Part shown: piece after piece, positions 3,249-31,994 of the stretch
Layout of the letters: each line of letters begins with the position of its first letter
How positions within the stretch are numbered: position 1 is the stretch's first letter
DNA from: Candidatus Saccharimonadota bacterium
Lineage (GTDB): Bacteria; Patescibacteriota; Gracilibacteria; BD1-5; UBA2023
Length of the DNA stretch: 32,000 nucleotides
Assembly: GCA_046350815.1 (NCBI GenBank)
Contig: JAXLZO010000001.1
Span: 420,001 to 452,000 of the forward strand
Direction of reading: 5' to 3'
The notes under the pieces: generated by a model
The model's input: the letters and a program-made list of their open reading frames with translations, nothing else
Database searches by the model: none
What the model was told of the DNA's origin: nothing
Position numbers and translations under genes: made by a program

Positions 3249-4121
3249 ATGAACAAACAAACCGTATTTCTTTTCCCCAGAGGGATCAGGATGCAGCTGA
3301 GCGATGCACTTGCTCAAAACTACGCCATGTCGTTCAAAGCGATTTGTAAGTGCTCTACCATGGAGACGCGTGTGCTCAGCATTTTTGCTGATCATGCTAC
3401 GTTTTTGGCAGAAAAAATTCATATTATGGAACGGTCGAAGGGTCGTCTCTCAAGGGATCGTCCCATAATGGTCTCTGACCAGTCGCCCGTGTTGTATGTG
3501 TGGACAGGACAGGGGAGGCAAGCCTTCGAAGTTCATTTATCGTCCGAGGAGTATGGGCGTGCAACTTGCAGATCTCCTGAGGATATTGCTACCTTGTCAG
3601 CTGAACCAACCCCCTTCGTGACCACAGCAGAACCTGAAGGAACCAAAGAGGTTGAGGTTTTGGATCCTGAGATGGTTCGTTGTCTTTTGGCTTTCAAAAA
3701 AGGGCTTCAATCGCCACGTCAGGTATCGGTAACGGTTGCTCGTTGTCAGGAGGCCATTGCTGCACATGATCATCTGAATGTTGTTTCACTCTACCAGCAG
3801 TGGTTTGTGAATATGATGGTGGCTATTCAGCCTCATACGAGTGCAAATATAGCTCGTGTTCGGATTGATCACGACCGTCTTGAAGCCTTGCTCATCCGAG
3901 CTGGGTATGCATTCAATAGTCAGGGCTATCTGATAGCTTCAGGCGATCCAAACTTACCAGCGTTTGAGCAGCTTCCACCAACCATCGTTCAGGAAAGTCA
4001 AGATCAGTGGGTAGGTACTGATGTGGCTTCAAGGTCACCTCTGCTTGCTCTGCTACCAGAAGGTTGCGCTGATCCGGTAGGGTATCTGACTGATTTTTTT
4101 AATCAGATGCTCGTCAAGTAA
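3249..4121 (+). CDS. Orphan hypothetical protein, 290 aa, compositionally foreign (about 50% GC, GC-rich third positions, no in-frame TGA)
   Basis: Intact ORF even under the standard code. A sampled 100-nt stretch (3471-3570) counts 56% GC against the mid-30s % of neighbours. All ~13 Gly codons are GGN. Ends in TAA, followed by a terminator at 4155. An alternative start is ATG 3291. Confidence 0.7.
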   Translation: MNKQTVFLFPRGIRMQLSDALAQNYAMSFKAICKCSTMETRVLSIFADHATFLAEKIHIMERSKGRLSRDRPIMVSDQSPVLYVWTGQGRQAFEVHLSSEEYGRATCRSPEDIATLSAEPTPFVTTAEPEGTKEVEVLDPEMVRCLLAFKKGLQSPRQVSVTVARCQEAIAAHDHLNVVSLYQQWFVNMMVAIQPHTSANIARVRIDHDRLEALLIRAGYAFNSQGYLIASGDPNLPAFEQLPPTIVQESQDQWVGTDVASRSPLLALLPEGCADPVGYLTDFFNQMLVK

Positions 4122-4154
4122 AATTACAAATCAAATCAAAAAGAGGACCAATTT

Positions 4155-4186
4155 AAAACTCCGCTTTCCATGGGAAGCGGAGTTTT
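4155..4186. terminator. Bidirectional hairpin terminator between convergent genes
   Basis: AAAACTCCGCTT (4155-4166) / AAGCGGAGTTTT (4175-4186) are exact complements. An A-run precedes and a T-run follows, so it can serve both the 3249 (+) and 6250 (-) genes. Confidence 0.8.
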
Positions 4187-4207
4187 TCGTGATGTTGGAT
4201 ATCCGAT

Positions 4208-6250
4208 CTATTTTGCTATTTTTCCATCGCCGGTGCTATCTCCGTATTCAACTTGGGTTAACACTATTTTTACATATTTCGCTTCGAGTTCCGAATCTCT
4301 TGCTGGTCGAAATTCTATAGTTGCACTCGTATTTTTCGGAAGAATTCAAAAGTTTCATCCGTTAATATTGAGGTCTCCTGTATGATTCACAAAATTTTGA
4401 ATGAATTTGCCGTTCATGTAGAGATCAATGCTTACTTTTTTAGCACCAGGATTATTTGCAGAGATGGTAAATGAACTAGTATAAGGTGATACATCATCAA
4501 ACGTTTGATATTTCCATGCTCAAAGAGATCCGCTATTGGTGCTGGAAGGTTGTGTAATACCAGATATTTGAGTCATTTTGAGAGATGCTTGAACTGGTGC
4601 TGGTGTAGTGATGATTGGCTTGAAGGCTACAACATTTGATGGAAAATATACTTCATGAGTTCCACCACCAGAGCTACCTTCCAGATCATTTTCACTCACA
4701 GACTTGAGAATAAGTTTTACCGTTCCGCTGTATGTATTTGGGGCAATTACTGTCACAGAAACAGGAGCATTCTGATACTTTTCAAGATTGAAGCCGCTAC
4801 CAAGAGTACTTGCCCCATTGCGTACATCGATAATTTCACCATTTGCCCGGGTTGTCAGGATGAAGTCTGACTTTTTTGCTGATGGATTACTCAATACAAG
4901 CACTACATCGTGACCACTGATATTGAGTTTTGTTTGTCCGTTGTTCGTGATAGTATAGCTGAGAAGTTTTGTTTCTTCTCAAGCATACGCTGTAAATGTA
5001 CCGAGACTGAGTGAATGGTCCTTGAGACTGATATATGGTTTGTTTATTACGGGAAGATTAGGTGCTTTTCTCGAATAAATCTCACTATCATTCCACACAC
5101 ATCGAATGGATGATTGAGGATTACTATTAGCGTTGAGAAGACAATTTTTGAGTGCTTCTGATTTGGTGATTGATTCTGTAGTGATGAAGATTTTTTCATT
5201 CAAATATCCTCTATAGAGACGCTTTATAGCTTCTTCTTTATAGATGGTAATATCATTCCATATACACTCAATAGTGGTGTCCTGGTATTTACTTCGATCT
5301 CTTTGACAATAATAATCAGCACTTGATCTGGTGATACTGGAAAATCGAGATTTTTCTATCCCATCTACAACTAATCGATATGTAGCTGTGACAGGAGTTG
5401 GTCTTGAGATCTGCACCATGACTCATCCAATGAATTGCATCGCGTTTGCATTGTCACCACAGAAGTAGTATGCGCTCGTAACACTTGCATTAATCGTCAT
5501 ACATTCTTTTGTTGTGAAAAAAGAATATGTGGAATGTTCTTCAAAAAAAGCAGGATTTTTTGGCTGTATTATGAGATCAAATGTTTTACTGTTTCCATTG
5601 TATATATTTCGCTCATCTCCAATGAAACTGAGAATAACATGATTATCAGAATTGATAGACGCTTGCGTGGTCACACGAACACCATTATATTCTAACCATA
5701 CTGATTCAATATTACGAGCGGAACCATATCATGTGCGCAATAGATTGATGGTAGTAGGTTCTGTCGTGCCATTGTAGGATGTAACACGAATCGATCCTAC
5801 TTTTGTAGCATCTCACGATCGAAGATATCTGACTCATCCATTTGTCGTACTTACTTCAAATGTTGTCGGAATAACTGGTGGGGTAGGTATGACTGGCGGA
5901 GTAATATCTGTGAGTTCATTAATGACGAGCTGATAAATAGCAGACAGTCGATAAGCACCGATTCGCTGAAATCGTGCGAGTTTGCGTTCAAGTTGAGCAA
6001 GAATATTTGGACGAATATCATCACCTTCACGATTGATCATGAGTTCATATCGATTGATGAGTCGATCTGCTGTTCGTTCATCACGAGCTGTCAGGGTATA
6101 GGCAAATGCCTGTTGTGTCATTCCAAGAAGGAGTATGACCGTTATAAGTATGCGATATATAGAAAGAAAGAAAAATAGAGTGCTTCTTAAAAGAGAAGGT
6201 CGTCTGTGAATTATATAAAAGTGGGAGGGGACGCAACAAACCTCACACAT
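4208..6250 (-). CDS. Large secreted hypothetical protein, 680 aa, with signal peptide, TPPVIP x2 linker and repeated Cys/W-N-D modules
   Basis: Track ORFs 5834..6250, 5423..5674, 4979..5419 and 4520..4903 share one frame. I walked all gaps and the tail 4519-4208 and found only TGA until TAG 4208-4210. The N-terminus ...LFFFLSIYRILITVILLLGMTQQAFA|YTL resembles a signal peptide. Internal repeat: DTTIECIWNDITIY / QSSIRCVWNDSEIY. The ATG 6250 start is uncertain. Confidence 0.7.
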
Positions 6251-6385
6251 TCTTCATAAAATCTTCAGATAAACCTCAGGTTTCATTTTGTCAATAGTTG
6301 CCACTGGTCTCATATCCATTTCAGAATATATATTTGACATATGTATATATTTATGTTTTAATAATCATGTCAATAACCAATAACC

Positions 6386-6838
6386 ATGACGCATCGAACA
6401 ACATGAATTTTTCACTCAATCGTAGCTGAAAAAGAAAATTATCGTACATCTGTAGAATACAACAAGCTTATGAGTTTGTTGGACTATCCTGAATCTCGGT
6501 CTGCCGCACTCGAAACACTCGTTCATCAAGCTTCGAAATCAGGCTATGAGGAGGTGCAAATGCAAGCAATGGCTGCACTCGCAACACAAGTGGAACTACC
6601 AAAATACATTCTTGATCAAATTACAGCCCTTGTTTATCAAGAATCAAATCTCAATGTTCAGATGGCAGTAATTGAACTTCTCTCATGACATGGGTCTCAT
6701 GTACGTATAGCATTTCATATTCTCAAAGATATGATCCATGATTGACTCTCTCGTGATGAGTGATATATGCTTTCGTGACTCTACAAAAAAATGAAAATGC
6801 AATATTTTTCCGACCAAAGGGAGCTTGCTCTTTTGTAA
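6386..6838 (+). CDS. Small helical-repeat (HEAT/ARM-like?) hypothetical protein, 150 aa
   Basis: ATG 6386 follows an in-frame TAA at 6374. The ORF contains track ORF 6470..6688 and reads through 5 TGA (6404, 6686, 6740, 6755, 6773) to TAA 6836-6838. Sequence includes ...ALETLVHQASKSGYEEVQMQAMAALATQVELPKYILDQITALVYQESNLNVQMAVIELLSGHG... A TTGACA at 6334-6339 sits upstream. The domain call is weak. Confidence 0.55.
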
Positions 6839-6905
6839 GAGAAATAATCATTGATGTGACTCATCTTTTCCAGGTGAGTTTTTTTACACGTGCATAAAAA
6901 TCAAT

Positions 6906-7445
6906 ATGATGCATTCTATGCAACGAATCAACCAAAGTATTATTGAGTCACATCTCTTACATTCCCTCGGACTCTCTCGAAGTCGATCGGCACAAAATAC
7001 ATTTTCTCCTTGATATTTTGACCGAGATAGTATTGAAGTATATAATCCGACATTGCCGAGCGATCATATACTTTGGTCGCGTGGTGACGCTCCTTTGTTG
7101 AGTCGTTTTGATCAAAAAAAAGCACTTCATACATTTGAGATATACTGGAAACATGGATGACTTCAAGCTAACAAGATAGCAGTATCTCTTCTTAAGAATT
7201 GCCTAACAGAGTGGAATCAACGTCTTGTTCTAGAATCACTTTGGGTGGAATGATCTCTCGATAAAGAAAAGAAAATATTTTCTTCTTCGAGGACCCAGAT
7301 AGCTGCGGATATTGTATATCGTCAATCTTGCGCTCATCTTTGTTTTTTTTATGGAGCATCACAATGTATTATTCCAAAAGAATGGTTTGTGCCAGATAAC
7401 ACCACATCACTTTTCTCCCGTATCAGCACTTTTTTTCAGCGATAA
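6906..7445 (+). CDS. Hypothetical protein, 179 aa, translationally coupled to dprA
   Basis: I indexed all 180 codons: no TAA/TAG, 3 in-frame TGA (7011, 7158, 7251). Stop TAA 7443-7445 lies 2 nt before the dprA ATG 7448. This ORF is absent from the standard-code track, which instead shows short antisense ORFs. Confidence 0.55.
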
Positions 7446-7447
7446 TT

Positions 7448-8563
7448 ATGTCAGATCATACTCAAAAACATCTTCTCATTGCATATGCACTTCAAGTTGG
7501 CCTCACTCAACGTGATTTGGTTTCATACGCTTTGGTAGCTCTTGAGACACCTCTTGAGGCATGGCTTGTATCAAGTAGTATGAAGGAGGAGCGAAAAGAA
7601 AATATACGAGAGAATAGCGCGAAGACTTCGATGCAGGTGATTGAGGATGTTGTCGAAAAAGGATATTTGATTCTTCTGCGGTGAGACGATGCTTATCCGC
7701 AATCACTTGCATCGCTTTCTCATCCTCCTGAGATGCTTTGGGCACGTGGGAATGTGAGCCTCCTCAATACTCCCTCGATTGCGATTGTCGGATCACGCAA
7801 ACCGACCCAATATACACAACGATCTCTTGATATAATTATCCCAAATCTTGTTGATGCGGGATATACAATTGTTTCTGGTGGTGCACTTGGTGCGGATACG
7901 ATCGCTCATGAGGTTGCTCTGAAATGTGGTTGATCAACGATTGCTGTCTTTGGTACAGGGATCGATCGATCCTATCCAGCATCCAATCGAGCACTCTTTA
8001 CGCGTATTCTTGAGAGCGGAAGTCTCATTATCTCGCAATTTCCGCTTGGTACTCAAGGGATTGCATACAATTTCCCAATACGAAATGAGATCGTCGCCTG
8101 ACTATCTCTCGGACTTCTTGTGACAGAGGCAGCTGAAGAGTCATGATCTCTCATTACTGCAAATCTTGCACTTGAATCGAATAAAGAAGTATTCGCTCTT
8201 CCATGATTCATAGATCACAGTGGAAGCTCTGGGGCAAATCGCTTGATTCAAAAATGACATGCAAAATTGATTCTCAATGCAGAGGATATTCTCGTAGAGA
8301 TTGAGCGTGAGAGAGGGATTATGAAACCAACAGCTAAATGAGGTGTCTCCTGAAATAAAAAAACTAACTCCTTACAAAGTAAAAGAGAGAACTTAAGTGA
8401 GATTCATAGGTGAATCTATGATGCTATATCGGCTGGTGCAGTCCACATGGATATGATCTCTCAGGAAACAAATATAGATATTTCCTCACTCTTTGCACAT
8501 ATGGCAGAGCTCGAAATTGCCGGAATTATTACTCAATGACCTTGATGATATGTTCTCTCCTAA
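7448..8563 (+). CDS. dprA: DNA-processing protein DprA (Rossmann-like DprA domain plus C-terminal winged helix), 371 aa
   Basis: Fragments 7448..7684 and 7733..7933 plus the downstream sequence lie in one frame. Motifs: ...IAIVGSRKPTQYT...[37 protein letters not shown]...[45 protein letters not shown]... There are 12 in-frame TGA and the stop is TAA 8561. Confidence 0.9.
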
Positions 8564-9581
8564 TACTCCCCGTGAGCTTGCGAAGCTCTTTGGTGAAACC
8601 AAGAAAATTATTCTCCTATGATCGGCTACTTGAGGCCATGTGATGCCTATTATTGCTTTTACAAAACATCTTCCTGACAAAGATTATATCTACATCACCG
8701 CTCCCGATTCCCTCGAGGAGAAAATGGCAAAGATGAATCATATATCGACAATCACTGCCCCCATCGAGCGACTCAGGGATACTTCTTGGACTGCAAAAAT
8801 TTGATATATATATTCTTTTCTACCGTTATTTTTTTGGGGAATACACAAGTTCTCTCTGCTCAAGAAACAATGATACTATCTCATTATGAGCAAGGGTTGA
8901 CCAGGATCTGTACCACTTTCTCTTGCTGGAAAAGTACTCTGAATGCAACTTGCTATCCATGAGTCTGACACAATCCCATGAAAAGCAAACCGATTGCTCG
9001 GAAAAATAGCTGATATTATCTTGCTTTGATATGACGATGCTTCAAGGTATTTTCCAGGAATGAATGCTCTTGTGATAGGACAAATTCTTGATCCGATATG
9101 GTATAAACATGCGGAACTCTCATCCGCTATCACATGGAAGACAAATCTTCGTCATATTCTGGTAATATGTGGATCACAAGGGTCTCGTGCGATTTTCGAA
9201 GAGCTTGCTCACACGATCGGTTCCATCGATGCTGAGTTCAAGATTATTCTCGGTACACTCAATCAAGATATGAAGTCCCAATTTATACAATATCCTCATG
9301 TAGAGACGATTGATTGGATCGAGAGTTCAGATTTACTTTTCGTCTTGCAAGATACGGATCTTGTTGTGACTCGATGATCAGCAACTACCCTCGCTGAGCT
9401 CTCAACATCCGCGGCACATTTTATTATTGTTCCACTTCCGGATGCTATGAATGATCATCAGTATCACAACGCTCTTTATTATGAGCGACTTGGTCATACC
9501 GTACTTCCTCAAACAGATCTCTCTCTCCTCTCACAAAAAATAAAATCCACACTTCTCCTCTTATGAAAATACAAAAAATAG
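8550..9581 (+). CDS. murG: MurG, UDP-GlcNAc:lipid I N-acetylglucosaminyltransferase, 343 aa
   Basis: Every codon 8550-9060 was indexed. Motifs: KIILL-G-SAT-G-GHVMP (GGTGGH), IMSKG-G-PGSVPLSLAGKVL-G-MQLAIHESD, C-terminal VVTR-G-SATTLAELS...IIVPLPDAMNDHQYHNA. Contains track ORF 9060..9377. Stop is TAG 9579. ATG 8550 overlaps the dprA end by 14 nt. Confidence 0.9.
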
Positions 9582-10150
9582 GAATTCAATGAGATATTGG
9601 AAGTTATAATTTCATCGCTCTTCAGGGTTATCTCTCTAAAAATAAAATAGAGGCTGAGGTTGTGCCACTCTATACGACCGAATGAGTTCTCCAGGCACTT
9701 CAAGATGGAATGGTGGATCTCGGTCAGTTTGCTCTTGCGAATTCCACTGGGGGATTGGTGGATGAGACGATTCGTGTGTTGGGGTATTATCATTGGGATT
9801 ATGTCACGCATTATGCTATCAAGATAGAGCATTGTATTCTTGCTCGGATCGGATCGACGTTGGAAGATATTTCCATTATTATGGCTCACGAACAGGCAAT
9901 CAAACAATGTAGAAATAATCTTGTAAAACTCTACCCAGAAAAAATACTTCAAAGTGGGGAAGGTGAGTGGAGTGATAATGCTCGAATTGCTCGTGGTCTT
10001 GCTCATAGTGCGCTTCCAAAACATGTTGGTTGTCTTGGTCATCGATCACTCGCAGAGCTTTATGGACTCCAAGTTCTTGCAGAATGACTTCAAGATCGGG
10101 CTGACAATGAGACGACTTTTGTGTTGGTGAGATGAAACAATGTAGAGTAG
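9563..10150 (+). CDS. pheA: Prephenate dehydratase (PDT) catalytic domain only, 195 aa, no ACT domain
   Basis: MKIQKIGIQ-G-DIGSYNFIALQGYL...VVPLYTTE-G-VLQALQDGMVDLGQFALANSTGGLVDETI...DNETTFVLVR. Contains track ORF 9710..10087. Stop is TAG 10148. The start overlaps murG by 19 nt. Confidence 0.75.
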
Positions 10151-17936: not shown

Positions 17937-18758
17937 ATGAGCAAACATCATTCTTTGGGAAGTCAGAACAATATTATGATTGCGGGTATTGCTCTCGGTG
18001 CTATTGTGATCGCCATTCTCCTTGCAGTCTTGGTCAAGGTAACTGCCGAGGAGCATGAATGTGAGAAGAAAATGGGATTCTATGATACATCTACTCGTAA
18101 GTGTCGTATCAATACTTCGACTGGAGAGCCAATCGAGGCAAACACCAATAAAATTACCTTTACAACACCAAATCGTGAAGTAGTCGTGACTGGCAGTCTT
18201 GCTCCAAATTTCAACGGAACGAAGACACTCATCAATCCTGATTTGAGAGAGATTTCTCGTGTTATTGAGGGTGTACAGGACTCGCTCCAAAAGCCGAGTA
18301 TCGATACCAATGATCGAAAAAGATACGCATTTGAAGCAGGGCAACTTTCATTTGCTCTCGATATTCCAAAATCATGAGTATCTGTTACTGTCTATCGTGG
18401 TAAGAACAATCTCCTCTATGCAACCACCACCAATAGTGGAGCAATGACGCCAGGAGCTTATGTAGCGATCCGTGGACAACTCACAGCACCAGAGTATATC
18501 TCTCGAGTGATTCTTGCGAAGCTCGATGATGCATCACGAGCCACTTGTCGCATCTATGAAAGCAAGGTATCATCAGCAGGTACCTATTACTACACTCTTC
18601 AGGGCGCAGGCTGTGCAAAATTGGATAGCATGTACCAGAATGTGGTATTCAGTATGAACAATACTCGGATCCCATCTCTCATCGTGATATCACCAGAATC
18701 AAACACTCTACTTGATTTAGAATCTATTATTATTCCAAGTCCAAGATTTGTGCAATAA
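17937..18758 (+). CDS. Membrane-anchored hypothetical protein, 273 aa
   Basis: Fragments 17937..18377 and 18444..18758 share the frame and are joined by a TGA. There is an N-terminal TM helix IMIAGIALGAIVIAILLAVLV. Stop is TAA. Confidence 0.65.
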
Positions 18759-18775
18759 GAATGGAATACTATATC

Positions 18776-18810
18776 AAAAATAATCCCACAACAATAAGGG
18801 GATTATTTTT
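18776..18810 (+). terminator. Rho-independent terminator
   Basis: AAAAATAATCCC (18776-18787), 10-nt loop, GGGGATTATTTTT (18798-18810). Confidence 0.75.
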
Positions 18811-18854
18811 GAGATTTCTTCATGACGTAATGATTTTTTTCTATAAGATAATCT

Positions 18855-18863
18855 TGATATAAT
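18855..18863 (+). promoter_or_regulatory. Extended -10 promoter (TGATATAAT) of methyltransferase M1, near-leaderless
   Basis: TG at 18855-18856 and TATAAT at 18858-18863. The ATG at 18872 is only 8 nt downstream. Confidence 0.5.
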
Positions 18864-18871
18864 ACTCTCTT

Positions 18872-19654
18872 ATGCCGCATCATAACGATTTTGATCTTCA
18901 AAATTGGAAAGAAATAGATCTCAATATGGATAGTTTGTGGATAATTAATGAGCGAGCAAAAGGTGGGAAACACTCTAATTTTTACCATGGAAATTTTATT
19001 CCACAAATTCCGAATCATTTTATTCAAAGATACACAAAAAAATGATGATGGGTGTATGATCCATTCCTTGGTAGCGCAACAACAGCTATAGAATGTGAAA
19101 TACTTGAACGGAATATCATAGGAATAGATATACAGGATGCGCTCATCGAAAGAGTAAAAAATCTGATTCCATCCAATCTGATTCATGCTCATTTTTGAGT
19201 ATGAGATAGCGGGTCAAAAGAGATACTCGAAAAAGTACAGAAGATATTGAAACATCGAGAGATTGATGGCGTAGATCTTGCAATTCTTCATCCGCCATAT
19301 GCTGATATTATTAAATTTAGTGATCAAGAAGGTGATTTATCAAATACAAAAGATACCCAACATTTTCTTGAATCCTTTGGTAAAGTCATTCACAATACCT
19401 ACAAAATTCTCAAGAAAAAAGGCTATATGGTGATAGTAATCGGAGATGCATATAAGAATAGCGAATGGGTGCCGCTTGGTTTTATGTGTATGACTGAAGC
19501 TCAGAAACATTGATTTCTCCTCAAATCAATAATAGTGAAGAATATGGAAGGGAATAGAGGAAAGATGGGTGCGAGCGGTATATGGAAATATCGAGCCCTA
19601 TCGAGTGACTACTACATTTTCAAACATGAGTATATTTTAGTTTTTAAGAAATAA
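18872..19654 (+). CDS. R-M methyltransferase M1: amino-(N6A/N4C) DNA methyltransferase, 260 aa, motif order X-I...IV (gamma-like)
   Basis: HGNFIPQIPNHFIQRYTKK-GG-WVYDPFLGSATTAIECEILERNIIGIDI (motif X plus FxGxG), later DLAILHPPYADI (PPY motif IV with His). Contains track ORF 19247..19513. Five in-frame TGA. Stop is TAA 19652. Confidence 0.75.
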
Positions 19655-19692
19655 TAAAACAACCCGGAACATATTTTTTCTATTACATAGAT

Positions 19693-19733
19693 ACTTATAG
19701 TCTGTAGATTTATAGTCATCATTTCTTATAGTG
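19693..19733 (+). promoter_or_regulatory. C-box operator: three TTATAGT(C/G) repeats upstream of the controller gene
   Basis: ACTTATAGTC (19693-19702), TGTAG, ATTTATAGTC (19708-19717), ATCATTT, CTTATAGTG (19725-19733). The C-gene ATG is at 19759. This resembles GACTTATAGTC-type C-boxes as I remember them. Confidence 0.7.
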
Positions 19734-19758
19734 AATTTACTTTTATTTTTCGTCTATC

Positions 19759-19962
19759 ATGGATATTAAGAAATCTTTTTGAGAAACAATCCGAGCTTTA
19801 CGAAAAGAGAGAAAAATTTCTCAAGAATGACTTGCTGAAAAATCCTGACTGCATAGAACCTATATAGGTAATGTGGAAAGATGAGAAAAGAATATTTCTC
19901 TCGAAAATATCGCTATTCTTGCAATAGCTCTAGAGGTGGAAATAAAAGATTTATTTTCGTAA
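19759..19962 (+). CDS. Controller (C) protein, XRE-family HTH, 67 aa
   Basis: MDIKKSF-G-ETIRALRKERKISQE-G-LAEKS-G-LHRTYIGNVER-G-EKNISLENIAILAIALEVEIKDLFS carries the C-protein signature GLHRTYIG..ERG..N.SL.N. Four TGA fall at Gly positions. Stop is TAA 19960. Confidence 0.85.
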
Positions 19963-19976
19963 AACATGAGTCTTTT

Positions 19977-20630
19977 ATGAGTCATAATCCATTTAACGAG
20001 GGAACGCAAATTCATAAGATATTTGAGATATTATCAGATTTAAAATGGCATTGTTCAGAGCATGAATTACCTTGAAGCCAACCAGCAAAAGCACTCCAAA
20101 TGATCCGACAAAAAGGGTATGTGATGGAAAAAGTAGGATCAAATTATGAGAAAAGGATATTATGTTCTGTATGCGGGAGAAAAACTCCACATAGAAAACT
20201 TGCTTCTCTCGAAATTCAACATACCTCTATTGAGAGGACTAAAAGCTTAGATACAAAATTAAAAGAAAGAATTATATCTCTATATAACGGTGAGGATGCT
20301 ATTCTTTGATATGCGCCGACTGGTCGAAAAATAGAAGTTGATCATCGGATTCCTCAGATTCGGTGGATAGAAAAAGAAGAAGATTATGAAGATATGACTG
20401 ATGAACAATTGAAAGCACAATTTATGCTTCTTGTACGAGAGCATAATCTTCTCAAGAGTCGTTTTTGTGAAAAATGCAAAAAAACTAATACGAGACAAAA
20501 ATTCCTCTGAATTAAGTATTTTTTTCAATGAAATGAGAATTATACAGACAATTTATGATGTAAGTGATGTGGTTGGCACAATCCTGAAGAGTGGAAAGCA
20601 TCGCTGAATAATAAATTATCTTGAAATTAG
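19977..20630 (+). CDS. Candidate type II restriction endonuclease, HNH (beta-beta-alpha-Me) with CxxC zinc motifs, 217 aa
   Basis: Starts 15 nt after the C gene. CSVCGRK ... EVDHRIPQIRW ... LLVREHNLLKSRFCEKCKK gives an HNH D-H...N pattern plus two CxxC motifs. Fragments 19881..20075 (true start ATG 19977) and 20100..20309 share the frame. Stop is TAG 20628. Confidence 0.65.
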
Positions 20631-20672
20631 ATATAAATTGAATACTATGAGTAACAATTAATAATACGAAGT

Positions 20673-21746
20673 ATGAATTATATTGGATCAAAACTCTCTC
20701 TTCTAGAGTTTCTCTATACTTCCATATCTTCCGTAGTTGAAGATCGAAGATATGTTTTTTCGGATCTTTTTGCGGGAACTGGCACTGTTGGGAGATATTG
20801 GAAACAGAAGGGGTATCAAGTTTGGGCGAATGATCTTCAGTATTATAGTTACATCCTGAATCGCCACTATATTGGCAATCATCAAGATCTCTACTTTACG
20901 GGTCTCACAAGCGATATTCCGGAACTTCTCGTAGCCGGAGTGAACGAAATAAAGAATATTGTGCTTGCGCATTTGAGTCAGATCGAGCCCACAAGCTGAT
21001 TTATCTATAAGAACTACTGTTCTGGTGGAACACTCTGAGGAGAATATGAGCGGCAGTATTTCTCAGATGAAAATGGGAAGCGATGTGATGCTATTCGTAC
21101 GCAGATAGAACTCTGGAAGATGGAATGAAAAGTGACGGAAGATGAGTACTTTTTTTTGCTTGCGTCACTCCTCGAAGCAATTGATAAGGTTGCGAACACC
21201 GCTTCCGTATATGGCGCATTCCTCAAGAAGCTTAAAAAATCTGCACAAAAACCACTCGAACTCAAGCCTGTTCAATATCACCTCAATGATCATGATCATA
21301 TTGTGACAAATAGTGATGTGGGATTGCTGGTAAGGAATACAAAACACGATGTTGTTTATCTTGATCCACCGTACAATCACCGTCAATACAGTGGAAACTA
21401 TCATATTCTTGAGACGATTGCAAGATATGATAGTCCTGAGATTCATGGCAAGACAGGTATGCGAGACTGTCGCGAACAAAAATCAGATTATTGCAGTCGA
21501 TCAAACGTTAAAAGGGCGTATAGTGAATTGATAGAAAATATTGATGCAAACTATATTTTCCTCTCGTATAATGATGAATGATTGATGAGTCATGATGATA
21601 TTCGAGATATTATGAGTACAAGGTGAGAGTATGGATTTTTCACCCAAGAATATCAACGATTCAAGGCAGATAAGACAGAATCAAGAAATCATAAAAAAGA
21701 TCGAGTAATAGAATATCTGCATTATGTAATCATTAAAAATCCTTAA
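20673..21746 (+). CDS. R-M methyltransferase M2: D12-class (Dam-like, alpha) N6-adenine DNA methyltransferase, 357 aa
   Basis: MNYIGSKLSLLEFL...FSDLFAGTGTVG (motif I) ... NDLQYYSY ... VVYLDPPYNHRQYS (motif IV) ... IFLSYNDE. Fragments 20673..20999 and 21132..21581 share the frame. Stop is TAA 21744. Confidence 0.8.
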
Positions 21747-21750
21747 GCCT

Positions 21751-21783
21751 AAAATAAGAGTCACGATATCTGACTCTTATTTT
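21751..21783 (+). terminator. Rho-independent terminator closing the R-M cassette
   Basis: AAAATAAGAGTCA (21751-21763), CGATATC loop, TGACTCTTATTTT (21771-21783), then ATTT. Confidence 0.8.
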
Positions 21784-21828
21784 ATTTGCTTGCGACTCAA
21801 TAGTATTCTCATAAAATACAAAGAAAAA

Positions 21829-23802
21829 ATGCAACTCACGAAAACGCTTCTTCATACCACAGATGCATACATCAAAAAACTCGCTGATGGAGGGATTCAG
21901 ACGGTTGAGGATATGTTGACTCACTATCCACGGACACTTGAGGAAATTGGGGGAGTGGTGCGAGAGTGGGCGTATATTGATGTGAGTTCGATCAATACGA
22001 TTGAGGGGATTATCGAGCATATTTCACGAGAGCGCACTAGAAATGGTAAACAACTTACTAAGATCACTCTTCGCGATATCCATGGAAGCTATGTGGAGGC
22101 GGTCTATTTTCATGCGAATTATCAACTCAAGAATCTCTCAAAAGATCAAAAAATCACCCTCATAGGCAAACCAAAATATGAGTATGCAAAAATGAGTTTT
22201 GTGAGTCCTGAGATCAAGTTCTCTACGGAAAATATAAGCGAGATACGCCCACTCTATAGCGATATAAACTATATTCCAGGATCTTGGTTTGCAGCGAAGA
22301 TACCCCTTCTCTTCGAGTATATAACTCTTCTCGATGATCCATTGCCTCGAGATTTTCCTACCTATCAGACGCTTCTTGGATTTCATGACGCGGTTAAGAT
22401 GATTCATACACCTTGAACACTTGAGGAATATGAGCGTGCAAAACATAGTCTTGGGTATCGTGAACTCTACAGCTATCAAAAACGAGGCATTGAAAAGAAG
22501 TTTGCTCTTCAAAAGCAGAGCCAAGGACATAGTCTTGTGGTTCCACTCAATGCGGACTATATGAAGGAACTCCTGACACGAATTCCATTTGAACTGACGA
22601 ACAAACAAAAAATAGCAACCTTTGCGATCCTCAAGGATATGGAATCTCCTTATGCGATGCATCGACTTTTGCAGGGTGATGTCGGTACAGGTAAGACGAT
22701 TGTCGCTTTTCTGACAGCACTTCATCTCCATCATGCGACGGGTGCACAGATTGCTATAATGTCGCCAACTGAGATTCTCACGAGACAACATTTTGCAGGA
22801 TTTGAAAGGGTATTTGGTGATTTTTGACTCTCGAGTGATTTGCTCGTCGGAGCGCTCACACCCAAGCAAAAAAAAGAAGCAAAAAATCGCCTCGCAAATG
22901 GAGTGACGGATGTTATATTTGGGACACATGCATTGATTCAGGAAGATGTACAGTTCGCGAAGCTCGGATATGTAGTGATCGATGAGCAACATCGATTTGG
23001 CGTGAATGAACGCACCGTCCTCGAGACCTATTTTTCCAGTCGGTGAGCATGTCATCCACATGTGCTCAATATGACAGCAACCCCGATTCCACGAACCCTC
23101 TCTCTGACAATCAATGGTGATCAGGATATGTCGATCATCAATGAATATCCAAAAGGGAGAAAGCCTATCTATACAAAAGTACTCAAAACAGATCATCTCA
23201 CTGATCTCTACCGTATGGTCGAGAGTGAAGTGACGAGTGGACATCAGGTCTACTGGGTGTGTCCTCTGGTCGAGGAGAGTGAGACACTCGATATTGCTTC
23301 TGCTGTCTCGAAGAGCGAAGAACTTCGCCTCATTTTCCCAGATCTCACAGTTGGTCTCATTCATGGCCGTATGAAGTGATCAGAGAAAGATGTTATTATG
23401 CAGGAGTTTATAGCTGGTAATATCGATATTCTCACGAGCACATCCGTGATAGAGGTTGGTGTCGATAATCCTAATGCGACTATTATCGTGATTGAGTGAT
23501 CAGAGCGATTTTGACTCTCACAACTTCACCAATTCCGCGGAAGAGTCGGGCGTGGGCAGGATCAGTCGTACTGTTATCTCCTCACGAGTGAGGATCGAAA
23601 AAAGACAGAGCGACTGCGAGCTATGGAGGAGACGAATGATGGATTTATCCTCTCTGAGATTGACCTCGAGCTTCGCTGACCCGGAGAGGTGTATGGTGTG
23701 AGACAAAGCGGTGTCCCTGATTTCAAAATTGCGGATATTACCGATCTCGAGAAAGTGAGTGAAATTCGGGAGACGATCATTGCTTATTTACAACCATCAT
23801 AA
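21829..23802 (+). CDS. recG: ATP-dependent DNA helicase RecG, 657 aa
   Basis: Fragments 21790.., 22537.., 22840.. and 23062.. share one frame. Motifs: [11 protein letters not shown] (Walker A), [10 protein letters not shown] (DEQH), [44 protein letters not shown]. Stop is TAA 23800. ATG 21829 (MQLTKTLL...) is preferred over TTG 21790. Confidence 0.92.
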
Positions 23803-24335: not shown

Positions 24336-25286
24336 TTATCTTTTGTACTTCTTCACCATTGAACCAACAAAATCTTCAATCGAAAGCTCAGCCGCATGAA
24401 GTTGCTGTGGTATGAAGCTTGTTTCGGTCATACCAGGTATCGTATTGATCTCCAGTACAACCAGTTCTCCTCGTTTATTGAGAATCATATCGGTGCGAGA
24501 GATGTCCTTGCATCCACAGAGCTTATGCACTTGAAGGGCGAGCTCTTGGATTTGTTTTTTCAGATCATCATCAATGTTTGCTGGAGTGATTTCTCTACAT
24601 CCATTTGGTGAATATTTTGCACCATAGTCGAATATATCACTTTTAGTGAGTATAATTTCTGATGGTGGGAGAGTAAGAATATCATCATTTATTTCTACTA
24701 CTCCACACGTAAATTCTCTCCCCTGAATATACTCTTGAACGAGAATATCAGATCGTGTTTTGAGTTCTTTTATACATATTTTCCAAAGCTCCTCCTGAGA
24801 ATTTGGTTTATAGAGTGATACACTAGACCCATCAGCGCGCGGTTTGACAATGCATGGAAGATCAAGAGCTATTTGATGGAGTTCGTGAATATCTCGTACT
24901 ATAAATGATTGAGGAACTCGAATTCCGTACTGTCTAAGAAAATCACCAGTTTCCTGTTTGTCTATGGTGAGTTCTAACGATTGGCTTCATGATCCGATAA
25001 AAGATAGCTTTGTTTTCTCAAGGATACGGGCAAATTGTCCATCTTCACCAAAAGCCCCGTGCATTACTGATAAAATAATACCCACATTCCCTTCCATCGT
25101 TTTCAGAAGATCATCGAGATTGATTGTCTTTTCATCAAGAAAATATTGTCCTTGTTGGGTCAGAAGAACGATGTGAATATCCAGATTTGGAGTATCTTTT
25201 AATGTATTTGCTATGTTTCTTCATGACGCGAGAGAGACATTATGTTCTGATCAAGGTCATCCGATAAAAAGATAAAGATGTTGCAT
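24336..25286 (-). CDS. ddl: D-alanine--D-alanine ligase, 316 aa
   Basis: MQHLYLFIG-G-P-G-SEHNVSL..., MHGAFGEDGQ, IVKPRADGSSVS, LVQEYIQGREFTCGV, C-terminal track ORF 24336..24530 (LEINTIPGMTETSFIP). Stop is TAA 24336. Confidence 0.9.
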
Positions 25287-25484: not shown

Positions 25485-27362
25485 ATGTCAAAAATTATTG
25501 GTATCGATCTTGGTACAACTAACTCATGTGTTGCGTTTATGGAAGCGGGATCTCCAAAGGTGATCCCAAATGCAGAGGGTGGAAATACAACCCCATCTGT
25601 TGTAGCAAACAAAGGTGGTGACACGCTTGTGGGTATGCCAGCAAAACGTCAGGCAGTTATGAATCCTGCTCAGACAATTTTCTCAGCAAAGCGATTCATT
25701 GGTCGTCAGTTTAGCGAAGTTCAAGCGGAAATTAAGAATGTTCCCTATAAAGTAGTTGCCGGTTCCAATGGTGAATGTCTCATCGAATACAACGGTGAGA
25801 ATGTTCGTCCAGAAGAAATTTCTGCAAAGGTTCTTGAGAAACTTAAAGATGACGCGGAAAAATACCTCGGATCAAAAGTTGCAGGGGCTGTTATTACTGT
25901 TCCAGCATACTTCAATGATTCCCAACGTCAGGCAACTATCAATGCTGGTAAGATTGCTGGACTTGATGTAAAACGTATTGTGAATGAGCCAACTGCCGCA
26001 GCTCTTGCATACGGTCTTGCAAACAAGAAAGATGAGAAAGTAGCGGTCTATGACTTTGGTGGAGGTACGTTTGATATTTCCATCCTAGAGATTGGATCAG
26101 AAGGTACATTCGAGGTTCTTGCAACTAATGGTGATACTCATCTTGGTGGTGATGATTTTGATCAGAAGATATTTGAGTATATTGTTGCTGAATTTCAAAA
26201 GGATCAAGGTGTTGATCTTCGTAAGGATCCAATGGCAGTTCAACGTGTTCGTGATGAGGCGGAAAAAGTGAAAAAAGAGCTCTCATCAGCGACAGAGGTT
26301 GATATTAATCTTCCATATATTACGGTTGATACGAGTGGTCCAAAAAATCTCTTTATGAAGATTACTCGAGCAAAATTCGAAGAGCTTATTGCAGATCTCG
26401 TGGAACGATCTATCGAACCATGTCGTAAGGTGCTCAAGGATGCAGGACTTCAAGCATCACAGATTGATGAGGTAATTCTCGTTGGTGGATCGACTCGTGT
26501 ACCTATGGTGCGAGCCAAGGTGGAAGCATTCTTCGGAAAGAATCCAAATAACTCTGTACATCCAGATGAAGCGGTAGCCGTTGGTGCAGCGGTTCAGGCT
26601 GGTATTATCCAAGGTGATGTGACTGACGTGCTTCTTCTTGATGTGACTCCACTGTCTCTCGGTATTGAGACCCTTGGTGGTGTTATGACTCGTATGATCG
26701 AGCGTAATACAACGATCCCAACTTCCAAGTCTCAAGTCTACTCGACAGCTGCTGACAATCAAGATAGTGTCGAGATCCATGTTCTCCAAGGTGAGCGTGA
26801 AATGGCTGGTGATAACAAGTCACTCGGAAGGTTTATCCTTTCTGGTATTCCACAGGCTCCGCGTGGCGTACCCCAGATTGAAGTTATTTTTGATATTGAT
26901 GCATCCGGTATTCTTCATGTAACTGCAAAGGATAAGGGAACTGGTAAAGAACAAAAGGTGACCATTCAGGCAGGTACGAATATGGATGAAAAGGAAGTTG
27001 AGAAGCTTGTAAAGGAGGCAGAAGCTAACCGCGAATCTGATAAACTCAAGAAAGAGTCGATCGAAGCTCGTAATCATGCGGACTCGGCTATCTATCAAGC
27101 AGAAAAGACTCTCAAAGACAATGAGGGAAAATACGACGCAAAAGATGGTGAAGATGCAAAGGCAAAGATCGAAGAGCTCAAGAAAGTTCTTGAGCCTTCT
27201 GATGCATCCAAGGCTGATATTGATGCAAAACTCAATCCACTTCAAGAGGTTATGATGAAAATTGGTCAGGCAATCTACGCACAAGGCACAACAGATGCGG
27301 AGACTGCAAATGACAAGAAAAATGACGATGGAACAGTTGATGCAGAGGTAGAAGAAAAATAA
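25485..27362 (+). CDS. dnaK: Chaperone DnaK (Hsp70), 625 aa
   Basis: [14 protein letters not shown]..., [17 protein letters not shown] prefer ATG 25485 over the track start 25440. There is no in-frame TGA although I count about 50 Gly. Stop is TAA 27360. Confidence 0.97.

Positions 27363-30466: not shown

Positions 30467-31994
<1,528 letters not shown>

What the first reader, a model, noticed from the sequence alone, without database searches (positions are those of the whole stretch)
18855..21787. Complete C-protein-controlled type II R-M cassette (M1 - C - R(HNH) - M2) written in the alternative code
Four co-directional genes sit between two strong terminators (18776, 21751). M1 is a gamma-like amino-MTase, followed by a 67-aa controller protein with upstream C-boxes. 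Next is a 217-aa HNH/CxxC nuclease starting 15 nt after C, then a D12-class m6A MTase (M2). Two dissimilar MTases with one small HNH nuclease is the layout known from asymmetric-site (type IIS-like) systems such as MnlI, where each MTase protects one strand. That specificity is my inference. All four genes carry in-frame TGA-Gly (4 in the 67-codon C gene), so the cassette cannot be expressed in a standard-code host. This makes it an R-M system locked behind a genetic-code barrier. The cassette sits directly upstream of recG.
Basis: partly seen in the sequence, partly recalled or inferred. Interest (0 to 1): 0.65.

Follow-up and report, generated by a model that had tools for sequence, protein, structure and literature searches.

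The report
C-controlled NlaIII-type restriction-modification cassette, Gracilibacteria
This is a real but ordinary bacterial restriction-modification (anti-phage) gene cassette of the NlaIII/IceA1 family, with a classic controller protein and two methylases, sitting as a strain-variable island in a genome that reads TGA as glycine.

Summary
Four co-directional genes lie between two strong hairpin terminators: M1 (18872-19654), C (19759-19962), R (19977-20630) and M2 (20673-21746). They carry 21 in-frame TGA codons. Standard-code homologs have Gly at those positions in 66% of cases and never Trp.

All four genes match known type II R-M components. R belongs to Pfam ICEA, the NlaIII/IceA1 His-Me-finger family that cuts CATG. 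M2 is a D12-class methylase. M1 is a circularly permuted N6/N4 methylase with an invariant HPPY motif. C is a PvuII/BclI/AhdI-type controller. Its C-box (TACT-TAT-AGTC-TGTA-GATT-TAT-AGTC, 19692-19717) is invariant upstream of C in six recoded genomes.

The "asymmetric, MnlI-like site" inference is not supported:
- M1-R pairs and R-M2 pairs exist alone elsewhere.
- A published Campylobacter IceA1/NlaIII cluster with two methylases shows only C(m6A)TG.
- CATG is avoided in carrier genomes.

The "code barrier" applies to every gene in this genome. Still, the cassette is a strain-variable island absent from syntenic relatives, so its donor was also a TGA=Gly organism.

One unplanned finding: short M1 (as here) co-occurs with M2, while a long M1 stands alone.

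Verdict: new member of a known kind, with modest interest.

The parts
18759..21790 (.). Strain-variable island that holds the whole cassette and both terminators
   Evidence: Syntenic contigs L092 and L093 (82-89% nt identity) and L091 (94%) match the window up to 18757/18758, the stop of the upstream 260-aa gene. They match again from about 21790-21808. None has an M1, C, R or M2 hit. L092 carries a different 1.78 kb segment of 30.7% GC in this slot. GC is 34.6% for 18855-21787 against 39.3% for the rest of the window.
18774..18812 (+). Hairpin terminator of the upstream gene (left border)
   Evidence: RNA fold gives -17.3 kcal/mol with z -7.5, and 0 of 200 shuffles fold as well. The consensus scan missed it, presumably because its loop is longer than the scan's 3-8 nt limit.
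18855..18863 (+). Putative extended -10 promoter of M1 (TGaTATAAT), 8 nt before the ATG
   Evidence: Read directly from the sequence. This is an inference only. The consensus scan found no more promoter-like sites than chance.
18872..19654 (+). M1: short-form, circularly permuted N6/N4-family DNA methylase (260 aa, 5 TGA). Motif I is DPFLGSATT and motif IV is LHPPY.
   Evidence: Pfam PF01555 scores 4.3e-26, with the C-terminal half of the profile matching the N-terminal half of the protein. PDB beta-class DNA methylases align in permuted order. PADLOC MTase_II model PDLC03351 scores 9.6e-90, aligned to model positions 92-347 of 348. HPPY is invariant in 240 homologs, and motif I precedes motif IV in 189 of 189. 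An M1 homolog lies near R in 61 of the non-redundant loci examined.
19692..19717 (+). C-box operator (OL + OR): TACT-TAT-AGTC-TGTA-GATT-TAT-AGTC
   Evidence: It is the only hit to the published consensus in the window (2 mismatches, 0.04 expected). The stretch ACTTATAGTCTGTAGATTTATAGTC is identical upstream of C in six recoded genomes, while the flanking intergenic DNA differs. Its half-boxes TACT and GATT and its TGTA spacer are the same as in the wild-type PvuII C-box (PMC2175313).
19727..19732 (+). Putative -10 (TATAGT) of the C-activated C/R promoter. The -35 would overlap half-box 2A (GATT).
   Evidence: A TATAAT, TACAAT or TATAGT hexamer sits at the same offset after the C-box in five of the six loci. 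The geometry matches that described for PvuII (PMC2175313). This is an inference.
19759..19962 (+). C: controller protein (67 aa, 4 TGA) with an HRTY recognition helix
   Evidence: Pfam HTH_3 scores 6.5e-16. The best PDB hits are C.BclI (1.2e-15), C.AhdI (9.7e-15) and C.Esp1396I. PADLOC Control_protein scores 1.1e-21. Three of the four TGA codons align with Gly in C.BclI and C.AhdI.
19977..20630 (+). R: NlaIII/IceA1-family His-Me-finger (HNH) restriction endonuclease (217 aa, 7 TGA)
   Evidence: Pfam PF05315 ICEA scores 42.4 bits against a cut-off of 24, E 7.6e-11. PADLOC REase_II PDLC03537 scores 1.8e-26 over the full length. D122-H123, N157 and the Cys pairs C63/C66, C164/C167 and C195/C198 are invariant. 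The AlphaFold2 model of a 73%-identical homolog has pLDDT 92, and its weak Foldseek hits are enriched in Cas9 and Cap5 HNH domains. Homolog N-termini support the 19977 start.
20673..21746 (+). M2: D12-class N6-adenine DNA methylase (357 aa, 5 TGA), with FAGTG and DPPY motifs
   Evidence: Pfam PF02086 scores 2.7e-47 over profile positions 1-252 of 253. PADLOC MTase_II PDLC03257 scores 4.5e-106. It sits directly downstream of R, the order I recall for iceA1-hpyIM; the C. jejuni hpyIM ortholog is a D12-class CATG methylase (PMC8743553).
21750..21784 (+). Hairpin terminator ending the cassette (right border)
   Evidence: The stem has 14 bp and is followed by a T-run. RNA fold gives -18.4 kcal/mol with z -6.0.

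Best explanation
A horizontally acquired, C-protein-regulated type IIP restriction-modification cassette of the NlaIII/IceA1 family, most probably CATG-specific, resident in a Gracilibacteria-type genome that reads TGA as Gly.

**Shown**
- The identity of the four genes.
- The operator.
- The recoding.
- The island status.

**Inferred mechanism**
1. M1 is transcribed from its own promoter. M2 is transcribed from a promoter in the R-M2 gap, by read-through, or both. Together they methylate the chromosome first.
2. The M1-C gap has no terminator, so read-through and basal initiation give a trickle of C.
3. A C dimer binds the distal operator (TACT-TAT-AGTC) and activates the C/R promoter. This gives a delayed burst of R.
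4. At higher C, the proximal operator (GATT-TAT-AGTC), which overlaps the -35, is filled and shuts the promoter. This is the PvuII/Esp1396I/AhdI scheme.
5. R is a winged-helix-like domain plus a Zn-stabilised HNH domain. It cuts unmethylated sites in incoming DNA.

**Roles of the two methylases**
M2 is the NlaIII/HpyI-type C(m6A)TG methylase. M1 is a second methylase that acts on the same site rather than on the other strand of an asymmetric site. Its short form appears to depend on, or complement, M2.
For: - **Family assignments.** Pfam, NCBIfam, PDB and PADLOC searches identify the four genes.
- **R family.** ICEA is the NlaIII/IceA1 family within the His-Me finger superfamily (PMC5714182). 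IceA1 is a CATG enzyme (cited in PMC2816704).
- **C-box.** It occurs once in the window and is conserved in six loci. The HRTY helix paired with a TGTA spacer matches the PvuII subgroup rule (PMC2175313). The operator logic follows PMC2504287.
- **Linkage of the three enzymes.** In 80 genome loci the gene orders M1-R-M2, M2-R-M1 and R-M1-M2 all occur. M1-R pairs alone are flanked by GyrA, AlaRS and similar genes. R-M2 pairs alone also exist.
- **Methylome precedent.** C. jejuni cluster X has an IceA1/NlaIII homolog plus two putative methylases, and its methylome shows only C(m6A)TG (PMC4202330, PMC8743553). Cultured Aliarcobacter butzleri carries all three gene types, with an HTH gene between R and M2.
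- **CATG avoidance in carriers.** Observed/expected is 0.15 in Halobellus (rank 1 of 136 4-mers), 0.31 in Clostridia (rank 2), 0.63 in M1-R-only loci (rank 2) and 0.61 in CPR loci with all three genes (rank 4).
- **Island status.** Shown.
- **TGA=Gly.** Shown. The cassette has 23 TGA per 1000 codons against 13 in host genes, and TGA positions are shared with other recoded cassettes.
Against: - CATG specificity is inferred from family membership and relatives, not measured.
- The ICEA match is moderate (42 bits) and covers residues 80-215.
- R is only 42-48% identical to the relatives that pair with a single methylase, so specificity could differ between clades.
- CATG is not avoided in the window (O/E 1.01) or in the other Gracilibacteria loci (0.86).
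- The avoidance test has no set of non-carrier control genomes, and GATC and GGCC are also depleted in those pools.
- I could not confirm at sequence level that the second C. jejuni methylase is an M1 homolog.
- Foldseek gave no significant PDB hit for R.
- The promoters are consensus-level guesses.
- Short M1 almost never occurs without M2, so simple redundancy is not the whole story.
Confidence: 0.75

Rival explanations
1. The system recognises an asymmetric (type IIS-like, MnlI-type) site. M1 and M2 each methylate one strand, and R is a monomeric HNH nuclease.
For: Two dissimilar methylases sit with one small HNH nuclease. Short-form M1 is found with M2 in 30 of 30 loci that have M2, and without M2 in only 2 of 31 loci that lack it. 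That fits mutual dependence.
Against: - R is in the NlaIII/IceA1 family.
- Long-form M1 alone, and M2 alone, partner R homologs with no other methylase nearby.
- The C. jejuni cluster with two methylases yields only palindromic C(m6A)TG (PMC8743553).
- No asymmetric 5- or 6-mer stands out as avoided in 285 kb from carriers of all three genes.
- Two methylases for one palindromic site is an established layout in DpnII (PMC3573125).
Confidence: 0.1
2. M1 is an independent or orphan methylase with an unrelated specificity. It only neighbours the true C-R-M2 system because defence genes cluster.
For: The M1 family is very large, with more than 6000 homologs at E<=1e-3, while the R search returned about 100. 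In L081, L006 and L007, unrelated defence genes (GmrSD_N and others) sit between M1 and C.
Against: An M1 homolog lies within a few kb of R in 61 non-redundant loci across many phyla and in every gene order. Often they are 1-30 bp apart. M1-R pairs alone lie between housekeeping genes. The short and long forms of M1 track the presence or absence of M2.
Confidence: 0.08
3. The cassette is a decaying or domesticated remnant. R is inactive, and the methylases act only as epigenetic or orphan enzymes.
For: There is no CATG avoidance in this genome. iceA1-type genes are often disrupted in other bacteria; for example, the R gene is split in Arcobacter cryaerophilus L088.
Against: All four ORFs are intact. 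Every invariant catalytic and Zn-ligand residue of R is present. The C-box and C are conserved. The island differs between close strains, which suggests recent turnover.
Confidence: 0.07

Closest known systems
NlaIII (Neisseria lactamica) and HpyI/IceA1-M.HpyI (Helicobacter pylori) CATG systems
   Same: R passes the Pfam ICEA (PF05315) gathering score and keeps the DH...N His-Me core with CxxC pairs. A D12-class adenine methylase lies immediately downstream of R, the order I recall for iceA1-hpyIM (PMC5714182, PMC8743553).
   Different: This cassette has an extra upstream methylase (M1) and a controller protein. Sequence similarity to the family profile is moderate. Specificity has not been measured.
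IceA1/NlaIII gene cluster of Campylobacter jejuni ST-677/HS:19 ('cluster X'), and the M1/R/M2 loci of Aliarcobacter and Clostridia
   Same: One NlaIII-type nuclease sits with two methylases, one of them D12-class. The published C. jejuni methylome shows C(m6A)TG (PMC4202330, PMC8743553). The same three gene families occur in L089, L066 and L057-L072.
   Different: The gene order differs (M2-x-x-R-M1, or M1-x-x-R-HTH-M2). There is no PvuII-type C gene directly upstream of R. These organisms use the standard code. Homology of the second C. jejuni methylase to M1 was not verified here.
C.PvuII, C.BclI, C.AhdI and C.Esp1396I controller circuits
   Same: C is a 67-aa Xre-type HTH whose best PDB matches are C.BclI and C.AhdI. 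It has the HRTY helix. The double C-box with a TGTA spacer has the same half-boxes as wild-type PvuII. C lies directly upstream of R (PMC2175313, PMC2504287).
   Different: All genes are co-directional, with one methylase upstream and one downstream. In PvuII the methylase gene is divergent, and in AhdI and Esp1396I it is convergent. C has a leader of about 20-25 nt, whereas I recall the PvuII transcript being leaderless. Regulation has not been tested.
DpnII system (DpnM + DpnA + R.DpnII); I recall MboI and LlaDCHI having the same layout
   Same: A D12-class methylase and a small N6/N4-family methylase serve one palindromic 4-bp site with one nuclease. DpnA methylates single-stranded DNA during transformation (PMC3573125). 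DpnA-named structures are among the PDB hits of M1.
   Different: The site (GATC) differs, and as far as I recall R.DpnII is not an HNH-type nuclease. M1 is circularly permuted and has HPPY in motif IV. No evidence bears on activity towards single-stranded DNA.
   Same: An HNH-type nuclease with two methylases.
   Different: The HNH family and the domain layout both differ. Comparative gene context argues for one shared palindromic site.

Membership tests
Type II restriction-modification system | Separate REase and MTase genes that are adjacent and intact | tested here: met
   PADLOC gives REase_II at 1.8e-26 and MTase_II at 9.6e-90 and 4.5e-106. All ORFs are intact under table 25.
NlaIII/IceA1 (Pfam ICEA, His-Me finger) REases | Score above the Pfam gathering threshold | tested here: met
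   42.4 bits against a cut-off of 24, E 7.6e-11, residues 80-215. Most homologs also carry PF05315.
NlaIII/IceA1 (Pfam ICEA, His-Me finger) REases | beta-beta-alpha-metal core (DH ... N) with structural Cys pairs | tested here: met
   D122, H123, N157, C63/C66, C164/C167 and C195/C198 are invariant in 28 and 45 sequences. Fold search was only weakly consistent.
NlaIII/IceA1 (Pfam ICEA, His-Me finger) REases | Recognition of CATG | not testable with these tools
   Support is indirect only: CATG avoidance in carrier genomes and the C. jejuni methylome (PMC8743553). There is no avoidance in the window itself.
C.PvuII-group controller proteins | Small Xre-type HTH homologous to characterised C proteins | tested here: met
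   C.BclI 1.2e-15, C.AhdI 9.7e-15 and C.Esp1396I 1e-7. PADLOC Control_protein 1.1e-21.
C.PvuII-group controller proteins | Double C-box GACT-N3-AGTC-N4-GACT-N3-AGTC upstream of the C gene | tested here: met
   A single hit at 19692-19717 matches 14 of 16 positions, with 0.04 expected. It is conserved in six loci.
C.PvuII-group controller proteins | C gene immediately upstream of, and co-transcribed with, the REase gene | tested here: met
   The C-R gap is 14 nt with no hairpin. Co-transcription itself is inferred.
C.PvuII-group controller proteins | Autogenous activation and repression of the C/R promoter | not testable with these tools
   This needs EMSA or reporter assays.
D12-class N6-adenine DNA methylases (M2) | Full-length Pfam PF02086 match with FxGxG and DPPY motifs | tested here: met
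   2.7e-47 over profile positions 1-252 of 253. FAGTG and LDPPY are visible in the sequence.
Beta-class N6/N4 DNA methylases (M1) | Motif order IV ... I (DPPY before FxGxG) | tested here: not met
   Motif I (residue 63) precedes motif IV (residue 140). The order is the same in 189 of 189 homologs. M1 is a permuted relative with a gamma-like order, not a beta-class member.
Type IIS / MnlI-like two-methylase systems | Asymmetric site requiring one methylase per strand | tested here: not met
   M1-only and M2-only partners of R homologs exist. Carrier genomes show no avoided asymmetric word. This is a comparative test, not a biochemical one.
Genetic code 25 (TGA = Gly) | In-frame TGA at positions that are Gly in standard-code homologs | tested here: met
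   66% Gly against a 6% background, and 0% Trp, over 21 positions.

The most novel reading that the evidence does not exclude
The two methylases are neither redundant nor strand-specific. The short M1 has lost a conserved N-terminal domain of about 100 aa that lets the long form protect alone. It has become an auxiliary enzyme that works only alongside M2. It might be a DpnA-like methylase for incoming single-stranded DNA, which would matter for DNA-scavenging episymbionts. It might instead modify a second base of CATG, or act in complex with M2. Separately, the C-controlled version of the cassette circulates only among TGA=Gly lineages. This is a concrete case of the genetic code partitioning a mobile defence-gene pool.
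Probability: 0.3. Interest if true: 0.45.

Novelty: new member of a known kind. Interest (0 to 1): 0.28.

Why it matters
The main value is as a clean annotation. It gives a fully specified R-M system, with operator, promoter geometry, borders and codon reassignment, in a poorly studied and uncultured lineage. Twenty-one independent positions confirm TGA=Gly.

Two points go a little beyond routine:
- **Code-matched gene transfer.** The cassette is absent from 82-94% identical syntenic strains yet is richer in TGA-Gly codons than the host genes. Its donor must therefore have been another recoded organism, which documents code-matched horizontal transfer.
- **Two forms of M1.** Across 61 loci, M1 is short when M2 is present and long when M2 is absent. 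This offers a testable explanation for why NlaIII-type systems so often carry two methylases.

Neither point changes how R-M systems are understood.

Tried and rejected
- **PDB sequence search with R.** No hit.
- **Foldseek of the R homolog model against PDB.** Nothing at E<=1e-3, only weak HNH and winged-helix hits.
- **R against plasmid and phage collections.** No match.
- **Direct link of M1 to the C. jejuni cluster.** I searched with an Arcobacteraceae M1. This returned Aliarcobacter, Sulfurimonas and Sulfurospirillum proteins but no C. jejuni protein in the top 120.
- **Literature searches for a methylome of an organism carrying all three genes.** Beyond C. jejuni, nothing usable turned up. 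Xu et al. 2002 on iceA1 is not held.
- **Search for avoided asymmetric 5- and 6-mers in carriers of all three genes.** No candidate emerged.
- **tRNA scan for a tRNA-Gly(UCA) in the window.** None found.
- **Alternative R start at 19881, overlapping C.** Rejected because homolog N-termini align with the start at 19977.
- **TGA=Trp (table 4).** Rejected, although the public protein collection translated this contig that way (P0001).
Full report

Yes. Under table 11 the window is broken up: ORFs of 100 aa or more cover only 48% of it. Reading TGA as sense produces long ORFs throughout.

Four co-directional genes occupy the reported region:

| Gene | Coordinates | Length | In-frame TGA |
|---|---|---|---|
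| M1 | 18872-19654 | 260 aa | 5 |
| C | 19759-19962 | 67 aa | 4 |
| R | 19977-20630 | 217 aa | 7 |
| M2 | 20673-21746 | 357 aa | 5 |

- The public source contig (Logan SRR26348422) has the same gene calls. There TGA was translated as Trp (P0001).
- Both bordering hairpins are strong. The left one is 18774-18812 (-17.3 kcal/mol, z -7.5). The right one is 21750-21784 (-18.4 kcal/mol, z -6.0).
- The M1-C and R-M2 gaps contain no hairpin.
- recG follows at 21829.

**2. The genetic code**

I took the 21 in-frame TGA positions of the cassette and looked at standard-code homologs. They have Gly in 66% of aligned cells, against a 6% background, and Trp in none. Several positions are invariant Gly: R185, R197, M2-303 and M2-318. 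Three of the four TGA codons in C align with Gly in C.BclI and C.AhdI.

So TGA=Gly (table 25) is confirmed. The closest R and M1 homologs that carry a source name are from Gracilibacteria. No tRNA gene lies in the window.

**3. What the four genes are**

*R.*
- R passes the Pfam gathering score for ICEA (PF05315; 42.4 bits against 24). This is the family of NlaIII and IceA1 within the His-Me finger superfamily (PMC5714182). IceA1 is a CATG enzyme (cited in PMC2816704).
- PADLOC's REase_II model PDLC03537 matches over the full length (1.8e-26).
- Alignments of 28 and 45 homologs show invariant D122-H123, N157 and three CxxC pairs.
- An AlphaFold2 model of a 73%-identical homolog is confident (pLDDT 92). 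Foldseek finds no significant PDB neighbour. The weak hits are mostly Cas9 and Cap5 HNH domains, plus winged-helix domains for the N-terminal part.

*M2.* It is a full-length D12-class adenine methylase (PF02086, 2.7e-47; PADLOC 4.5e-106).

*M1.*
- M1 matches PF01555 in two pieces in swapped order.
- It aligns with beta-class DNA methylase structures in permuted order.
- It matches a type II methylase model collinearly (PDLC03351, 9.6e-90).
- Its motif IV is HPPY, which is invariant in 240 homologs. Motif I precedes motif IV in 189 of 189.

*C.*
- The published C-box consensus occurs once in the window. The hit is 19692-19717, TACT-TAT-AGTC-TGTA-GATT-TAT-AGTC, 42 nt before the ATG of C, with 0.04 expected by chance.
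- The two deviating half-boxes (TACT, GATT) and the TGTA spacer are those of the wild-type PvuII operator. The HRTY recognition helix goes with TGTA spacers, as described in PMC2175313.
- The stretch ACTTATAGTCTGTAGATTTATAGTC is identical upstream of the C genes of six recoded genomes. The surrounding intergenic DNA is not conserved.

**4. Comparative context**

A scan of one genome per species found 412 R relatives. I mapped M1, C and M2 onto the best 80 loci and ordered them on an R tree.

| Group | Gene arrangement |
|---|---|
| TGA-recoded Gracilibacteria/Peribacteria clade | M1-C-R-M2, sometimes with extra defence genes inserted |
| Standard-code CPR bacteria | M1-R-M2, no C |
| Clostridia | M2-R-M1 |
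| One locus | R-M1-M2 |
| About 31 loci (Chloroflexota, Planctomycetota, Acidobacteriota, Ignavibacteria and others) | M1-R only |
| Three loci | R-M2 only |
| Halobellus | R with neither methylase type |

- The M1-R-only pairs lie between housekeeping genes such as gyrA and alaS, with no other methylase nearby.
- Cultured Aliarcobacter butzleri carries M1-x-x-R-HTH-M2.
- A C. jejuni ST-677/HS:19 cluster is described in the literature as an IceA1/NlaIII homolog plus two putative methylases. Its only type II motif attributable to the cluster is C(m6A)TG (PMC4202330, PMC8743553).
- CATG is among the most depleted 4-mers in carrier loci: Halobellus 0.15, Clostridia 0.31, M1-R-only 0.63 and CPR loci with all three genes 0.61.
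- CATG is not depleted in the window (1.01) or in other Gracilibacteria (0.86). No asymmetric word stands out.

These results argue for one palindromic site, probably CATG, served by either or both methylase types. They argue against one methylase per strand. Two methylases for a palindromic site is the known DpnII layout (PMC3573125).

**5. An unplanned finding**

M1 exists in two forms.
- In all 30 loci that also have M2, an in-frame stop lies 1-19 codons upstream of the position equivalent to residue 1. This is the short form of 260-265 aa, as in the window.
- In 29 of 31 loci without M2, M1 extends 35-152 codons further upstream. In most of these the extension is a conserved domain of about 100-120 aa ending ...ERAKYYLERL...KTSKINDINLNRW.
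- The REBASE-derived PADLOC model also contains this N-terminal part.

So short M1 seems unable to stand alone, and the two methylases are probably not simply redundant. What the short form contributes is unknown.

**6. Is it an insertion?**

Yes.
- Metagenome contigs from close relatives are collinear with the window on both sides. L091 has 94% nt identity, and L092 and L093 have 82-89%.
- Homology stops at 18757/18758, the stop codon of the upstream 260-aa gene. It resumes at about 21790-21808, just before recG.
- None of these contigs has an M1, C, R or M2 hit. L092 carries a different 1.78 kb segment of 30.7% GC with two minus-strand membrane-protein ORFs.
- The cassette region has 34.6% GC against 39.3% for the rest of the window.
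- The cassette uses TGA for 33% of Gly codons, against 19% in host genes. Many of its TGA positions are shared with other recoded cassettes.

The cassette was therefore exchanged among TGA=Gly organisms. R relatives in other clades also occur in recoded genomes (P0053, P0054, P0094, P0096), so the family entered such lineages more than once.

**7. Mechanism**

The mechanism is inferred from the anatomy and from the PvuII, AhdI and Esp1396I literature.
1. The methylases are expressed first. M1 has an extended -10-like TGaTATAAT at 18855-18863.
2. No terminator separates M1 from C, so basal transcription supplies a little C.
3. C bound at the distal operator activates a promoter whose -35 overlaps half-box 2A and whose -10 is TATAGT (19727-19732).
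4. R, and probably M2 by read-through, then rise.
5. At high C, occupancy of the proximal operator represses the promoter.

None of this was tested. The promoter scan is at chance level.

**8. Verdict**

- The R-M, controller, HNH and code-25 reading is right.
- The asymmetric-site inference is not supported.
- The "code barrier" point is true of every gene here, and the need to recode TGA for E. coli expression of an R-M system already has precedent (PMC6191088).
- All four components match existing family models, so this is a new member of a known kind.
- The short/long M1 split and the code-matched transfer give it modest extra interest.

Noticed in passing
window 18872-19654; loci L013-L060 versus L001-L085 (M1 genes): M1 has two forms. 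The short form (260-265 aa) occurs in 30 of 30 loci with M2. The long form occurs in 29 of 31 loci without M2, and in most of these it carries a conserved N-terminal domain of about 100-120 aa. The function of that domain is unknown.
   Followed up: partly
window 30467-31994: A complete bacterial 16S rRNA gene (Rfam RF00177, 1420 bits). It could place the organism precisely.
   Followed up: no
window 25485-27362 (dnaK): dnaK has no TGA among 625 codons and 51 GGN Gly codons. Neighbouring genes use TGA for up to 50% of Gly. This may reflect expression-linked avoidance of the reassigned codon.
   Followed up: no
L092 6204-7980, against window 18759-21790: In a related strain, the slot between the 260-aa gene and recG holds a different low-GC segment with two minus-strand membrane-protein ORFs (199 and 229 aa). 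The slot looks like a hotspot for variable genes.
   Followed up: partly
window 24336-25097 (- strand): An ATP-grasp, D-Ala-D-Ala-ligase-like gene lies between yecM and dnaK. It has no counterpart in the syntenic contig L092, which has only about 125 nt there. This is a second strain-variable spot.
   Followed up: no
L008 6518-12139: A Gracilibacterium whose RecG is only 40% identical also has M1-C-R-M2 upstream of recG, separated from it only by a 73-aa ORF, with a further methylase-like gene upstream. This could be coincidence or a preferred insertion site.
   Followed up: partly
L081 (=L004) 3388-9772; L006; L007: In other recoded genomes the cassette is interrupted. A GmrSD_N-type gene and a 257-aa gene lie between M1 and C. 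A gene of about 400 aa with no Pfam match lies between C and R. In L081 (=L004) an extra 67-aa HTH gene lies upstream of M1.
   Followed up: no
L006 about 6640-6665, and the equivalent positions in L007, L008 and L081: An inverted repeat (GTCATCATT-N6-AATGATGAC in L006, variants in L007, L008 and L081) spans the putative -10 just after the C-box. It is degenerate in the window (19715-19740). It may be a third regulatory site.
   Followed up: no
L023, L026, L031 and other Halobellus loci: Haloarchaeal R homologs have neither an M1-type nor an M2-type methylase nearby, yet these loci show the strongest CATG avoidance (O/E 0.15, rank 1 of 136). In L005 (Pyrinomonadaceae) the partners of R are an HTH, an m5C methylase and Vsr.
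   Followed up: no
L066 8720-8938; L089 7533-7757: In Arcobacteraceae, a 72-74 aa Xre-type HTH gene sits between R and M2 instead of upstream of R. This suggests a different regulatory wiring of the same three enzymes.
   Followed up: no
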